64,000 nt of DNA from the human T2T-CHM13v2.0 reference genome, Homo sapiens (GCA_009914755.4 CP068257.2:33888001-33952000); one strand, 5' to 3'; counted from the stretch's first letter, positions 48,527 to 53,133 are shown. Numbers and translations are program-made. Notes: generated by a model not told the origin, from the sequence alone.

Positions 48527-48634
48527 CAGCAAATCAAACACATTATTTCACTAATTCTTTTTTACCTGTTGCTTCAGGTGAATAAAGTCACAATGTGTGT
48601 AGAACAAGTGAGTGACCCTTTACAAAGACTCTTG
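48527..48634 (+). other. Copy A of a ~108-bp duplicated unit carrying exon-like splice architecture: branch point ctaat, polypyrimidine tract ttcttttttacctgttgcttcag, 31-nt core GTGAATAAAGTCACAATGTGTGTAGAACAAG, donor gtgagtgacc (partner at 53026-53133)
   Basis: cagcaaatcaaacacattatttcactaattcttttttacctgttgcttcaggtgaataaagtcacaatgtgtgtagaacaagtgagtgaccctttacaaagactcttg aligns with the second copy at ~94% identity; the AG and GTGAGT signals are conserved in both copies. Confidence 0.5.
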
Positions 48635-49258
48635 TTCCCCCTAGAGATTTCATTGTGGCAAGGAAATAGCTCTAGAGTAGATCATTTTTAACCTAGTGAA
48701 CAGCCACAATGAAGGTTTGATAAAAGATGAACCAAATGAAGTAAGAACAGGAAGCTTGAGACTCTCTGCTCTGCTCAATCCATACCATTTCCAGAACGGG
48801 TCAAGCACTCAGAAGTGCCCTGTGGCTGTCTGGCACTAGAAACTCATGGAAGGTAAATTTTTTATGTTTTATTTTTCATTAAAACAGACTAAGAAATTGC
48901 CTAAAGGCAAGTTCCATATGTTTGGCTGTTGTTTAAACCTTAGTTTCTTAAATACATTTGAATAAAACTATGACAGAAGAATCATTGGTCGCTAATTTTT
49001 AAAAGAGTAAATATTAGGTAAAGATAAAATGAATTACTGACTTTATTTCATAGTTATAATATCTTAAGTTGGAAAGACTCTTTTACTTTAATCATTGTGG
49101 GGAAGAAGTATAAGAAAAATTTTAAGACTATTGGGGTGCAAACCACAGGGTGTAGCCTATATCTACTCCACATGCACCCTTCTGAAGTTCTTATATCCTA
49201 ACCTCATTTTTCATCCAACCTTAAATGATACCACAAAAATGCACTTACCGACCAAGCC

Positions 49259-49571
49259 TTTTTTTTTTTTTTTTTTTTTTGAGACGGAGTCTCGCTCTGT
49301 CGCCCAGGCCGGACTGCGGACTGCAGTGGCGCAATCTCGGCTCACTGCAAGCTCCGCTTCCCGGGTTCACGCCATTCTCCTGCCTCAGCCTCCCCAGTAG
49401 CTGGGACTACAGGCGCCCGCCACCGCGCCCGGCTAATTTTTTTTTGTATTTTTAGTAGAGACGGGGTTTCACCTTGTTAGCCAGGAAGGTCTCGATCTCC
49501 TGACCTCATGATCCACCCGCCTCGGCCTCCCAAAGTGCTGGGATTACAGGCGTGAGCCACCGCGCCCGGCC
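49259..49571 (-). mobile_element. AluY-type SINE, full length, minus orientation, with TSD ccaagcc(t)n at 49252-49258(+T run) and 49572-49588
   Basis: ccaagccttttttttttttttttttttttgagacggagtctcgctctgtcgcccaggccggactgcggactgcagtggcgcaatctcggctcactgcaagctccgcttcccgggttcacgccattctcctgcctcagcctccccagtagctgggactacaggcgcccgccaccgcgcccggctaattttttttt...ggcgtgagccaccgcgcccggccccaagccttttttttt; many intact CpGs; small internal duplication ggactgcggactgcag relative to consensus. Confidence 0.95.
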
Positions 49572-50489
49572 CCAAGCCTTTTTTTTTTAATGTCAGAACT
49601 TTTCTCCAAGTGAAAAACACCAATAATACACACCCTCCATTTTCCCACAAATCCCTCTTCTTTCCCCATATCTTATCAACCTTTCAACGAATTGGTCAAC
49701 ACTCTCCATTAACAAACTTTTAAAGTAAGAAAAATGGATGATGACTGCTTAAAATGAGAATCCTACTGTAAAAATCATTGATTCTTTATCTGGAAATTCC
49801 AAAATGTCACCCAATGTAAAATGAACTGGCTTAAGGAGAATTTTATACTAAACTTTCTCATAAAATGTTATTTTTTAAAAATAGGGAGGAGTGAAAATGA
49901 ACTTACTGGGAGGTACAGCAAACTAGCAAACTACTTATTTTGTATTTGGGGGAATGTGTGGAACCATTTAGAGGTACAGAAACCCTCTCTGAAAGAAAGA
50001 ATGATTTGACAATGTTATCTGAAACTTCCCAATGCCAATCTTTTCAAAGTCTAGCTGTTTTATTAGTTACTGAGAGAGGGATATCAAAATCTCCACCTAT
50101 GGTTGTGAATTTATCTATTTTTTCCTTTAATTTTGTCAGCTTTTGCTGACAAGTCATAGCTCAAATTTGGGAAACACTGTTTCGGGAGACCACAGAGGAG
50201 ATACAACCGTGGAACCAAATGAACCATGATGTAGCTCTCTGAACTGATGTTCACAGAAGTCACTGCCCTACACATTTGGCAATTCTATTTTAAGATATGA
50301 CCATGTTTTGGTCTATATGCAAACCTTTCCCTGAAGTGCCATTCACCTTTTCCTGAATTGTCATTTTTCTCAAACTGTTGACTAAGGATGAACATCTGTT
50401 AAGAAGTGCCACCTCCTGTCTGAGAAACATGGAGCATGTAAAGCCACTGTAGGGAAGATGACATGCAATCACTATAACGCACGGGCTTT

Positions 50490-50700
50490 CCTTTAAGTCA
50501 GCTTTGCCATGTAATCTCTTCAGCATGCATTAGCTGTGTAGCCATTGGGATGTTTCTTAACTGCTATGAACTCAATTACATCATCTGTAAAATGTCTTTG
50601 AAATAACTATCTCATTAGGTTGAAGGCCATGAGGATTTAATGAGATAAAGTATATATAAACTGCTGTTCATATAGTAGGTGCTCAATAAATGCTAGCTTC
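50490..50700 (+). mobile_element. MIR fragment
   Basis: gccatgtaatctcttcagcatgcattagctgtgtagccattgggatgtttcttaactgctatgaactcaattacatcatctgtaaaatgtctttgaaataactatctcattaggttgaaggccatgaggatttaatgagataaagtatatataaactgctgttcatatagtaggtgctcaataaatgctagc vs MIR consensus ...ctagctgtgtgaccttgggcaagttacttaacctctctgtgcctcagtttcctcatctgtaaaatgggg...ggttgttgtgaggattaaatgagttaatacatgtaaagcgcttagaacagtgcctggcacatagtaagcgctcaataaatg. Confidence 0.75.
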
Positions 50701-53025
50701 CCTTCTGCATTTCCGTTTATATGCTAGCAAGGTCAAGAGCAGATGCATAAACAAGACCGAATTTTCTAGTCCGTATTTATAAGATCTTAACTCATGTTCA
50801 GTAATTAACACTAATATACACAAATGAATATAGAACAAAATGACTTATACACACTTTCAGGTATCTCACACACAAATGCTTTAAATGCCGTTGAAAAGTT
50901 TTGGGACCTTTTCAGTCACTTTGAATATTCGGTTCATCGATCTTCCTTTGCCCCCAGGCACCATTTGGGGGTCTCACCATATCCTTCTCTCTGTGACTCC
51001 TCTGGTTGGTGCCATGGCTGGCAAAGTCCTAAGGGATGCCAAGAGAATTCCCCTCCATCAGAGCATCTGGAGAAGCACACCACCTACAGAGCTCCTGGGA
51101 CAGGTCCAGGAGGTTAAATGTCTGTTTAGAACCATTATCCATTCTCTATTACACACACAGGGGACAGTCCACGACCATTCATTGCATCAAGATCAAAACA
51201 TAATGTGTTGCAGGTAGGGAAGATACACATCACTTGGCAATTGCATTGCATTTGCTATTCAGGTTCTCAAAGCCTTGAAAGACAGCAAATGTCTACAATT
51301 CCCCAGTGCGAGATGATGGGAGATATAAACTAAATGGCAGAGATCAAAATCTCTTCTTTGGCATTCCGCAACACTTGAGACAGCTTAGTGCCAAGAGCAC
51401 CAGATTTAGAGTCTAAAGACCTGGATGTGAACCTGAATTTTAGTTTAGATACTGGTATGTTTCCGAACCTCAAATACAAGACCTGTAAGATGGGGATAAT
51501 AAAGACTTCCTCCTGGTGTTACTGTTCAAGAATCAGATAAAGCAAATATGTGAGATATTGGGATCATCTTTGCTTACCTTGTAAAAGGCAGACTCTAAAT
51601 CATTTCTAGGAATTATCAAGGTCTATACCTTCAGTGCTGTAACTATTCTCACGTTTTGCCAGTAGCTTTCCTCCAGCTGGAGTAAATTGTAAAATCCCTC
51701 ACTGGTATCATGATGCTGTTTAAGGAGGTGGTTTTTCAGATGAGAGCACCGAGGCCAATGTAAATGCCACATGCATCAAATTCATGTGTGCTGATTCAAA
51801 GACTAATAGTCTTTTAGCTCTGCACCTTCTTTGTGACAAAATAAATTTGTCATCAGTAATGAAACTTAAAACTTGGCTGGCAAATCCTTAATGCTCTTTG
51901 CCTTTAAAATAAAATTTGAAAAACCTTCAGTTCTATGTATTGACATCTTTACCTCTGATATATTAACAAACCATTAGCAGTTTAAGGGCTGAAAGGCCCA
52001 AGTAGTGTTATGCATGACGTCTGGGACATAGCTGAAATTCAAGGGTCTCACACCATGACCTGCCCATTATTTCAACTGAAACCTCACTCCCGCACCTCGG
52101 GCACCCTAGGCACAGGGGATATTCTCAGAAAATGGAACATAAATGGCATTGGAACATGGAGACAAGACCTTATTAACTAGAATTATCACTCGACTTTGGA
52201 AATTACTTTAAAACTGAATGCCATTCTCATGGATAGTAAAATATGACACCCAAGGCGGTTCTCAACACTTTGAAATCATTTGAGTTTGGATTAGACAAAA
52301 CTCCATAAAATATACACATTTGCATGCACAGAGAAAGATCAAGATTATGTGTACATGTACTTAGCTTACGAATTATAAGTGGATTTTTTGTGTATTTTTA
52401 CATTGTTTATACCCACATATAGGCATATATGAATATTTACAACGAAGCCAAAATTTTTTTAAACGTACTCCAAATCAAGTTAATACTCATTAAGAAAGGA
52501 AGAACAAAATACAGCAAATTCTCCATTATTTGTGTCAATAAGGTTAAGGCACAGGTTCAGATTTTGCTTTGAAATGCAGAATGTGATGATTTTGCAGCAT
52601 GCTTATTCATATTAAAATTTTCCCCTCAGGACAGGTGGAGAATAGCTAACTCCACAGCTATGAGAAGTAGCCTGGGGGTGAATCAAACAACAAAATATAC
52701 TAGGTGCATGGAATTTTACTTGGAAGTCACAATATTCCCATTTTCCAGGTAAGAAAACTGAGTCTTAAACCACAGTGGTAATAAAGAAAAAATTGTTCAT
52801 GACATGTGTTAAAGACAGGAAGGAAGACTTTATTCAATGGGAGACTATTGTAATAGGTATAGGGGCCACTGCAATATAATTTTTGAATGGGAGAGACAGA
52901 TTGGAACGAATTCCAAATACAGCAAGACCAAGTGGAAATTTACAGCCAAGGAACAGGGTAGGGACCAGTGGATGGAAAATTAATAAGAGGAAACATCAGA
53001 GGTAAGGGGAACGTACTTACTTAAT

Positions 53026-53133
53026 ACAGCAAATCAAACACACTATTTCACTAATTCTTTTTTACCTGTTGTTTCAGGTGAATGAAGTCACAATTTGTGT
53101 AGAACAAGTGAGTGACCCTTTACAAAAATTCTT
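53026..53133 (+). other. Copy B of the duplicated exon-like unit (partner at 48527-48634)
   Basis: acagcaaatcaaacacactatttcactaattcttttttacctgttgtttcaggtgaatgaagtcacaatttgtgtagaacaagtgagtgaccctttacaaaaattctt. Confidence 0.5.

What the first reader, a model, noticed from the sequence alone, without database searches (positions are those of the whole stretch)
48527..53133. Duplicated ~108-bp unit with complete canonical splice-site architecture (possible duplicated cassette micro-exon or exonised repeat)
Both copies (48527-48634 and 53026-53133, same strand, about 94% identical, 4.5 kb apart) carry four elements in order. There is a branch-point-like ctaat, then a polypyrimidine tract ttcttttttacctgttg(c/t)ttcag ending in AG. 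A 31-nt core follows, GTGAAT(A/G)AAGTCACAAT(G/T)TGTGTAGAACAAG, whose length is not a multiple of 3. The unit ends with a strong consensus donor GTGAGTgacc. Finding acceptor and donor both conserved across two diverged copies is not expected for random intronic sequence. The explanation could be a locally duplicated alternative exon, a poison or decoy exon, or an unclassified repeat family that carries splice signals. Homology between the copies fades within about 30 bp on either side, and one copy has a 17-bp indel upstream.
Basis: partly seen in the sequence, partly recalled or inferred. Interest (0 to 1): 0.55.

Follow-up and report, generated by a model that had tools for sequence, protein, structure and literature searches.

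The report
Small local duplication mimicking an exon
A 108-base stretch of non-coding primate DNA was copied once to a site 4.5 kb away, most likely as a by-product of DNA break repair about 25 million years ago; it looks like a tiny exon, but nothing here shows it is used as one, so it is ordinary.

Summary
The duplication is real: 48526-48633 and 53026-53133, same strand, 108 bp, 102/108 identical, and the only two copies in the window. The flanks are no more alike than shuffled sequence, so the edges are abrupt.

The core is 30 nt, not 31. The donor is CAA|GTGAGT, because the G of "AAG" is the G of GT. The "cag|GTGAAT" acceptor scores almost as well as a donor. The six differences are spread evenly and are mostly transitions, so keeping both splice-like sites at 94% identity shows no selection.

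Context: a primate genome (Alus, MADE1/mir-548, L1, MIR, CpG o/e 0.20). No coding exon was recognisable in the 64 kb. The window holds 49 exon-like AG..GT pairs with both site scores at or above 8, close to the unit's 8.0 and 9.2. GC skew hints that any transcription runs on the opposite strand.

Best reading (about 0.6): a "repair-mediated duplication", also called a doublet (Pace et al. 2009). This class is a short (median 147 bp) copy of DNA from less than 5 kb away, with no polyA and neutral divergence. A 17-nt repeat abutting copy B looks like junction filler, so B is probably the acceptor.

A second such pair lies at 2607-2780 and 4881-5054. A real exon or a low-copy repeat cannot be excluded without genome-wide and RNA data.

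The parts
48526..48633 (+). Copy A of the 108-bp unit, the probable donor (original) copy
   Evidence: blastn and MAFFT against 53026-53133: 102/108 identical. No junction repeat abuts it beyond chance level.
53026..53133 (+). Copy B of the 108-bp unit, the probable acceptor (inserted) copy
   Evidence: A 17-nt filler-like repeat abuts its 3' end.
48551..48577 (+). Branch-point-like ctaat followed by a pyrimidine tract ending in AG (copy A). The same elements are at 53051-53077 in copy B, with one C>T change in the tract.
   Evidence: Sequence read directly. Rough acceptor PWM score is 8.0, rank about 230 of 8899 AG sites.
48578..48607 (+). 30-nt core (copy A; 53078-53107 in copy B). It is open in one frame only (VNKVTMCVEQ in A, VNEVTICVEQ in B). 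Its first bases with the preceding CAG also form a donor-like site, CAG|gtgaat.
   Evidence: The donor-like score of CAG|gtgaat is 8.8, rank 71 of 6594.
48608..48613 (+). Donor-like GTGAGT preceded by CAA (copy A; 53108-53113 in copy B)
   Evidence: Rough donor PWM score 9.2, rank 55 of 6594 GT sites.
53131..53147 (+). 17-nt CTTAGCAGGACTCTTGC overlapping the last 3 nt of copy B. It is a copy of 53259-53275 (16/17 identical). I read it as a candidate templated filler or microhomology at the 3' junction of the insertion.
   Evidence: the repeat finder family D2 and blastn. By my own estimate, roughly 3e-4 such matches are expected by chance in a 446-nt region. Its 1/17 divergence is similar to that of the unit.
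53259..53275 (+). Probable template of the 17-nt filler, 128 nt downstream

Best explanation
The two units are donor and acceptor of a single small, proximal, intrachromosomal duplication in non-coding primate DNA. This is the class described as 'repair-mediated duplications' (RDs), also called 'doublets'.

Proposed mechanism (inferred, not shown): a germline double-strand break near position 53026 was repaired by synthesis-dependent strand annealing or end joining. The broken end invaded DNA about 4.4 kb upstream on the same chromosome and copied about 108 nt. It then picked up a short templated filler from 128 nt downstream and was re-ligated.

Since then both copies have drifted neutrally. 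K2P distance is 0.058, about 26 Myr at 2.2e-9 per year; with only 6 differences the range is roughly 9-55 Myr.

The copied stretch happens to contain a good-looking acceptor, a 30-nt core and a donor, so it is a pseudoexon and the copy inherited those signals. No splicing function is implied.

Shown here: two copies only in the window, same strand, abrupt ends, no polyA, evenly spread and mostly transition differences, and old MIR-bearing DNA between the copies.

Inferred: the repair mechanism, which copy is the acceptor, the age, and the absence of function.
For: Fit to the class described by Pace et al. 2009 (PMC2671141):
- Their set holds 824 human RDs with the donor less than 5 kb from the acceptor.
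- Mean length is 162 bp, median 147 bp, maximum 619 bp.
- None of the 39 inspected proximal acceptors had a polyA/T tail.
- Breakpoints show microhomology (2-9 nt), filler (1-68 nt) or deletions.
- Divergence tracks the neutral rate.
- Most lie in introns or intergenic DNA.

Here:
- The unit is 108 bp with a 4392-bp gap, in direct orientation.
- Neither end carries an A or T tract.
- Flanks are at chance similarity.
- No collinear similarity exists elsewhere on the 4.5-kb diagonal.
- Differences are 5 transitions and 1 transversion, evenly spread.
- A 17-nt, 16/17-identical repeat abuts copy B and overlaps its end by 3 nt.

Against a transposon or provirus: the DNA between the copies contains an AluY with its own target-site duplication, an L1 fragment and MIR elements. 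It is old host DNA, not one mobile element (the MIR and L1 calls rest on my own reading).

The process recurs locally: a second pair of the same kind lies in the window, 174 bp, 91.4% identical, direct, 2.1-kb gap, abrupt ends.

Nothing else explains the unit: there are no Rfam hits on it and no unusual folding (z-scores -1.4 to +0.2).
Against: - Genome-wide copy number could not be measured. 'Only two copies' holds for 64 kb only.
- No outgroup genome was available, so the empty site, which is the defining test of an insertion, was not seen.
- The junction evidence (3-nt overlap, 17-nt filler) is suggestive only.
- The pair is not in Table S1 of Pace et al. when searched by gap length. That screen only finds acceptors that interrupt an annotated transposon, so this is weak.
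- Only about 0.2% of 108-nt windows here carry an acceptor-donor pair this strong and this close, and that count includes the two copies themselves. The exon-like look is therefore not trivial for a randomly chosen donor.
Confidence: 0.6

Rival explanations
1. Both units are fragments of an interspersed repeat: a low-copy or unclassified transposable-element family, or part of a known consensus that I could not look up. The splice-like signals would belong to the repeat consensus.
For: No repeat library or whole genome was available, so this could not be tested directly. Short repeats with sharp edges are what repeat fragments look like. The window is repeat-rich.
Against: - 5.6% pairwise divergence implies a family active no more than about 25-30 Myr ago. 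From general knowledge, the primate families of that age are Alu, L1PA, SVA and a few ERVs, and the unit shows no homology to the Alu and L1 sequences in the window.
- Two independent insertions truncated at exactly the same two positions are unlikely.
- There is no polyA, no terminal inverted repeat and no target-site duplication at either copy.
- No diverged third copy exists in 64 kb, whereas the abundant families (Alu x10, MaLR LTRs x4, MLT1-like x4) all recur.
- No predicted protein in 5.8 billion carries any frame of it.
- Exact 22-31-mers of the unit were found in none of the three contig collections. Those collections hold little or no primate DNA, so this is weak evidence.
Confidence: 0.17
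2. Copy A, or both copies, is a genuine 30-nt frame-preserving cassette micro-exon, or a poison or decoy exon, of an unannotated or very large gene. It would have been duplicated together with its splice sites.
For: - Acceptor, branch-like motif, core and donor are all present in both copies.
- Only about 0.2% of 108-nt windows in this sequence have a pair this strong and this close.
- The core is 30 nt and open in one frame in both copies.
- Copy A has a UGC just upstream of the AG, a feature of SRRM4-dependent micro-exons (general knowledge).
- RDs are known to have duplicated whole exons with their splice sites, for example ACSBG2 exon 7.
Against: - There is no differential conservation: 2 of 6 mismatches fall in the 30-nt core, and both change the amino acid in the open frame (K>E, M>I).
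- No protein match to the unit.
- None of the 122 best exon-like open segments in the window matches any protein, so no neighbouring coding exons are evident.
- There is no CpG island outside Alus.
- The 'acceptor' is also a good donor.
- GC skew of -0.07 (z = -8) in non-repeat DNA from 28 to 64 kb favours the minus strand as any sense strand.
- In Pace et al. only 4 of 824 donors held a full exon.
Confidence: 0.05
3. The pair is the remnant of a larger structural event. Either it is a 108-bp target-site duplication flanking a 4.4-kb insertion, or it is the only surviving similarity of an older 4.5-kb tandem duplication.
For: Direct repeats that bracket a segment are the geometry of a target-site duplication or of tandem-duplication junctions.
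Against: - The bracketed segment has no polyA or polyT at either end and contains old MIR elements, so it is not a retro-insertion.
- A tandem duplication would leave the neighbouring sequence equally (94%) similar, yet the flanks are at chance and the 4500-bp diagonal holds nothing else.
Confidence: 0.08

Closest known systems
[quoted passage not shown]
   Same: An intrachromosomal pair less than 5 kb apart. Its length (108 bp) is within the reported 50-619 bp range (median 147). There is no polyA, the ends are abrupt, and divergence looks neutral (5.6%, in the range of their catarrhine and primate-age events). A possible short filler and microhomology lie at one junction, and the DNA is non-coding.
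   Different: Their cases were recognised because the acceptor interrupts an annotated transposon and were checked against empty sites in other primates. Neither could be done here. This pair was not found in their Table S1 by gap length. The 4.4-kb gap lies in the tail of their distance distribution, where 66% are under 3 kb.
'Doublets': short paired duplications in mammalian genomes (Thomas et al. 2004, PNAS; cited in PMC2671141, otherwise recalled from memory)
   Same: Short copies, near each other, usually on the same strand, thought to arise by a copy-and-paste insertion.
   Different: Doublets were defined as exact matches of 25-100 bp, mostly about 1 kb apart. This pair is slightly longer, older (94% identical) and further apart. 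The paper itself could not be opened.
Intronic pseudoexons (false exons; Sun and Chasin 2000, as cited in PMC1935003)
   Same: A non-coding sequence flanked by good acceptor and donor consensus that is not known to be spliced. Such sites are abundant: 49 of comparable score in this window.
   Different: Pseudoexons are usually defined as 50-200 nt. This core is only 30 nt, which is below the size at which exon definition normally works without special enhancers (general knowledge).
Exon duplication by RD, for example ACSBG2 exon 7 (Pace et al. 2009)
   Same: A short segment carrying both splice sites was copied a few kb away, with about 94% identity and no sign of constraint.
   Different: There the donor is an annotated coding exon with EST support. 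Here there is no evidence that either copy is an exon.
Neuronal micro-exons (3-27 nt, SRRM4/nSR100-dependent; Irimia et al. 2014, from memory)
   Same: A short, frame-preserving core with a strong pyrimidine tract and a UGC next to the 3' splice site in copy A.
   Different: Real micro-exons and their flanks are deeply conserved across vertebrates. Here the two copies differ at neutral-looking rates, copy B has lost the UGC, and no host gene is visible.

Membership tests
Repair-mediated duplication (proximal RD / doublet) | Donor and acceptor on the same chromosome, less than 5 kb apart and more than 50 bp apart (not tandem) | tested here: met
   The gap is 4392 bp between 48633 and 53026.
Repair-mediated duplication (proximal RD / doublet) | Duplicated length at least 50 bp and short (maximum 619 bp, median 147 bp) | tested here: met
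   108 bp. Criteria are from PMC2671141.
Repair-mediated duplication (proximal RD / doublet) | [quoted passage not shown] | not testable with these tools
   Only two copies exist in the 64-kb window. No primate genome was available. Scans of the microbial, viral and metagenome collections were empty.
Repair-mediated duplication (proximal RD / doublet) | No polyA/T tail and no retrotransposition hallmarks at the acceptor | tested here: met
   The ends read ...cttaat|ACAG and ...TCTT|agcagg, with no A or T run.
Repair-mediated duplication (proximal RD / doublet) | Breakpoint signatures: microhomology, filler DNA or small deletions | tested here: inconclusive
   A 17-nt, 16/17-identical copy of sequence 128 nt downstream abuts copy B and overlaps it by 3 nt. 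This is compatible with templated filler plus microhomology, but the pre-insertion sequence is unknown.
Repair-mediated duplication (proximal RD / doublet) | Empty (pre-insertion) site in an outgroup species; acceptor interrupts older sequence | not testable with these tools
   No orthologous primate sequence could be fetched. No host gene was identified through which to fetch loci.
Repair-mediated duplication (proximal RD / doublet) | Donor-acceptor divergence consistent with neutral drift | tested here: met
   Six differences (5 transitions, 1 transversion), evenly spread. K2P distance is 0.058.
Functional cassette exon or micro-exon | Acceptor, branch point and donor consensus around a short core | tested here: met
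   Rough PWM ranks are 230 of 8899 for the acceptor and 55 of 6594 for the donor. The matrices were written from memory, so the scores are approximate.
Functional cassette exon or micro-exon | Spliced transcripts using the sites | not testable with these tools
   No transcript data were available.
Functional cassette exon or micro-exon | Stronger conservation of the exon and splice sites than of neighbouring intron sequence | tested here: not met
   2 of 6 mismatches lie in the 30-nt core, and both are non-synonymous in the open frame. One lies in the pyrimidine tract. The rate is the same as in the rest of the unit. Power is low with only 6 differences.
Functional cassette exon or micro-exon | Lies in a transcribed gene, on its sense strand | tested here: inconclusive
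   No coding exon was detected in the window and no CpG island outside Alus. GC skew is -0.07 on the plus strand, which favours the minus strand as sense. Replication-linked skew cannot be excluded.
Interspersed repeat (transposable element) family | Many dispersed copies; match to a consensus (Dfam/Repbase) | not testable with these tools
   No repeat library was available. No third copy appears in the window at word size 7.
Interspersed repeat (transposable element) family | Structural hallmarks: target-site duplications, terminal repeats or a polyA tail | tested here: not met
   None is present at either copy.
Structured RNA gene (miRNA, snoRNA and similar) | Rfam match or unusually stable fold | tested here: not met
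   No Rfam match was found on the unit even at E <= 1. Folding z-scores range from -1.4 to +0.2 on both strands.

The most novel reading that the evidence does not exclude
Copy A is a real but unannotated 30-nt, frame-preserving micro-exon (or a poison or decoy exon) of a large primate gene or lncRNA. A break-repair duplication about 25 Myr ago gave it a twin 4.5 kb downstream, complete with branch point, acceptor and donor. The twin is now free to evolve as a second, possibly mutually exclusive or decoy, exon. This would be a caught-in-the-act example of exon birth by repair-mediated duplication.
Probability: 0.04. Interest if true: 0.5.

Novelty: new member of a known kind. Interest (0 to 1): 0.1.

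Why it matters
It matters little in itself. It is a typical product of a known, common process that scatters short copies of nearby DNA through primate genomes.

It is useful as a caution in two ways. First, two 94%-identical copies will share any motif the original had, so 'conserved splice sites' in such a pair are not evidence of function. Second, consensus-quality pseudoexons are frequent in primate non-coding DNA.

If RNA data did show use of these sites, the pair would illustrate how repair-mediated duplication can seed new cassette exons with ready-made splice signals. Pace et al. proposed this route, but they report only a handful of duplicated exons.

Tried and rejected
- **Contig scans.** I scanned metagenome, prokaryote-genome and viral contig collections with exact 22-31-mers conserved between the copies, hoping for contaminating primate DNA that would reveal copy number. 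All five scans returned 0 hits. This is uninformative, because these collections hold little or no primate DNA.
- **Unit translation.** I searched the six-frame translation of both copies against 5.8 billion proteins and found nothing at E <= 10. A 10-aa exon would be too short to register, so this only excludes longer annotated ORFs or TE proteins.
- **Host gene.** I selected 122 stop-free segments bounded by AG/GT sites with rough PWM scores of at least 4 (4980 aa) and searched them. There were no hits at E <= 1e-3. No positive control was run on the protein database's coverage of primates.
- **Larger duplication.** A k-mer diagonal count and flank alignments against shuffles found nothing beyond the 108 bp.
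- **Structured RNA.** Rfam found only mir-548/MADE1 at 47380-47463 and Alu-derived hits. Folding was unremarkable.
- **Provirus, LTR pair or L1 target-site duplication.** Rejected, because the bracketed DNA contains MIRs and has no polyA.
- **Table S1 of Pace et al.** I searched by gap length (4389-4396) and by divergence value and found no match.
- **Thomas et al. 2004.** The paper could not be opened.
- **16-nt repeat around copy A.** A 16-nt, 81% repeat flanks copy A (48477 and 48699). I judged it to be at chance level.
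Full report
**1. What is in the sequence**

The window is primate DNA.
- CpG observed/expected is 0.20.
Two of them also hit the SRP/Alu-derived Rfam models.
- A palindromic MADE1/mir-548 element lies at 47380-47463.
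- An L1 3' end with a polyA tail lies at 47672-48070, and there are several MIRs. These two calls come from my own reading.

The two units are at 48526-48633 and 53026-53133 on the same strand. They are 102/108 identical (blastn E = 4e-44). They are the only copies in the window, even with a 7-nt word and E <= 10.

**2.

Counting from the ruler, the AG is at 48576-48577 and GTGAGT is at 48608-48613. The core is therefore 48578-48607, which is 30 nt, not 31. Three consequences follow.
- The core length is a multiple of three.
- The donor is CAA|GTGAGT, with A at position -1.
- The 'frame-shifting poison exon' premise falls.

One frame of the core is open (VNKVTMCVEQ in A, VNEVTICVEQ in B). The other two frames contain stops.

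The junction 'ttcag|GTGAAT' is also a good donor-like site. CAG|gtgaat scores 8.8 and ranks 71 of 6594, against 9.2 and rank 55 for the downstream donor. The splice reading is therefore not unique.

Flanks of 60, 120 and 300 nt on each side align no better than shuffled sequence. Similarity ends abruptly, and the '17-bp indel upstream' is an artefact of forcing unrelated flanks into an alignment.

**3. Is the splice-like architecture more than chance, and is it conserved?**

I used rough donor and acceptor weight matrices written from textbook frequencies, so scores are approximate.
- The acceptor ranks about 230 of 8899 AG sites.
- The donor ranks 55 of 6594 GT sites.
- 49 AG..GT pairs 20-300 nt apart have both scores at or above 8 in this window.
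- Pairs this strong and only 15-60 nt apart are rarer. There are four, including the two copies, and about 0.2% of 108-nt windows carry one.

The motif set is good but not extraordinary. [quoted passage not shown]

The six differences lie at unit positions 18, 47, 59, 70, 102 and 104.
- One is in the upstream part.
- One is in the pyrimidine tract.
- Two are in the core, and both change the amino acid.
- Two are near the 3' end.
- Five are transitions and one is a transversion.

This is what neutral drift after one duplication gives. At 94% identity, retaining both sites needs no selection.

**4. Context**

- There is no CpG island outside Alus.
- No protein among 5.8 billion matches any frame of the unit.
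- None of the 122 best exon-like open segments of the whole window has a protein match. I see no coding exon in these 64 kb. No positive control was run on that database's primate coverage.
- In non-repeat DNA from 28 to 64 kb the plus-strand GC skew is -0.071 (z = -8). By the known transcription-associated asymmetry (Green et al. 2003, from memory), this suggests that any transcription uses the minus strand as sense. The plus-strand 'exon' would then be antisense. Replication-linked skew is an alternative explanation, so this is only a hint.
- Rfam finds nothing on the unit, and folding is unremarkable.

**5. What produced the pair**

The 4.4 kb between the copies holds an AluY with its own target-site duplication, an L1 fragment, MIRs and unique sequence. 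This rules out several models.
- It is not a provirus between LTRs.
- It is not a retro-insertion, because there is no polyA or polyT at either end.
- It is not an old 4.5-kb tandem duplication. That would leave the neighbouring DNA equally similar, and nothing else lies on that diagonal.

Two independent transposon fragments would have to be truncated at identical positions and belong to a family young enough for 5.6% pairwise divergence. The unit has no polyA, terminal repeats or target-site duplication. It also has no diverged third copy, although the abundant families in the window all recur.

The features fit the 'repair-mediated duplications' of Pace et al. 2009 (PMC2671141).
- They describe 824 human cases with the donor less than 5 kb from the acceptor.
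- Mean length is 162 bp, median 147 bp, maximum 619 bp.
- The 39 proximal cases whose breakpoints were inspected have no polyA.
- Junctions show microhomology, filler or deletions.
- Divergence tracks the neutral rate.
- The cases lie mostly in introns or intergenic DNA.
- The authors equate them with the 'doublets' of Thomas et al. 2004.

A 17-nt sequence, CTTAGCAGGACTCTTGC (53131-53147), overlaps the last 3 nt of copy B. It is a 16/17 copy of 53259-53275, 128 nt downstream. By my own estimate, roughly 3e-4 such matches are expected by chance. Its divergence is similar to that of the unit. I read it as templated filler at the 3' junction, which would make B the acceptor and A the donor. This is an inference.

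K2P distance is 0.058. At the 2.2e-9 per year rate used by Pace et al. this gives about 26 Myr. With six differences the range is wide, roughly 9-55 Myr.

**6. A second example**

2607-2780 and 4881-5054 form another direct pair.
- It is 174 bp long and 91.4% identical.
- The gap is 2.1 kb.
- The ends are abrupt.
- K2P distance is 0.093, about 42 Myr.

It contains weaker splice-like sites. Two such pairs in 64 kb support a recurrent local process rather than a special exon.

**7. Verdict**

The exon interpretation is unsupported, although it remains untested at the RNA level.

| Reading | Probability |
|---|---|
| Neutral proximal repair-mediated duplication of a pseudoexon-containing stretch | about 0.6 |
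| Low-copy repeat family | about 0.17 |
| Remnant of a larger structural event | about 0.08 |
| Genuine duplicated micro-exon | about 0.05 |

The remainder is left unassigned.

Deciding needs genome-wide copy number, a repeat library, outgroup alignments and junction reads. None of these was available here. The locus was not found in Table S1 of Pace et al. by gap length. That is expected if the acceptor does not interrupt an annotated transposon.

Noticed in passing
window 2607-2780 and 4881-5054: A second short direct local duplication. It is 174 bp long and 91.4% identical (15 mismatches, K2P 0.093), with a 2.1-kb gap and abrupt ends. It is probably another repair-mediated duplication, somewhat older than the first. 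It carries weaker splice-like sites (ttttcag|CTT ... AAG|gtaatt).
   Followed up: partly
window 53131-53147 and 53259-53275: A 17-nt direct repeat, CTTAGCAGGA(C/T)TCTTGC, with 128-nt spacing. The first copy overlaps the 3' end of unit B. It is possibly templated filler from the duplication event, or the target-site duplication of a separate 111-bp insertion that lacks polyA.
   Followed up: partly
window 47380-47463: A perfect-hairpin MADE1 element that passes the Rfam mir-548 gathering score on both strands (97 and 92 bits). It lies 1.1 kb upstream of copy A. Whether it is an annotated mir-548 paralogue is unknown.
   Followed up: no
window 50005-50198 (+) and 54362-54552 (-): An inverted pair of about 190 bp, 86.7% identical, that reads like L1 sequence. 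It could be two independent L1 fragments or an inverted local duplication. It sits between and just beyond the two units.
   Followed up: no
window 50958-51213, 52630-52748 and 52749-53001 (+): Three plus-strand exon-like intervals with stronger rough splice scores (acceptor 9-12.5, donor 9.8-11) than the flagged unit. The first coincides with a 110-codon ATG-initiated open frame (50885-51214). The last ends 25 nt before copy B. They had no protein matches. They could be lncRNA exons or more pseudoexons.
   Followed up: partly
window 28000-64000: A sustained negative GC skew on the plus strand in non-repeat DNA (-0.07, z = -8). The skew changes sign around 24-28 kb. This could mark minus-strand transcription or a replication-skew domain.
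   Followed up: partly
window 28192-28564, 30958-31319, 41941-42292 and 63625-63995: Four copies of a roughly 370-bp repeat, 74-80% identical to each other (the last one inverted). By length they are probably solitary MaLR-type LTRs. A further 402-bp pair (11644-12037 and 47672-48070, 85% identical) consists of L1 3' ends.
   Followed up: no
window 56830-57050: A purine-rich low-complexity tract that translates as long runs of E, K, R and G on one strand and S, L and P on the other. There are also (TG)n/(CA)n microsatellites near 2050, 4200, 14250 and 47220.
   Followed up: no
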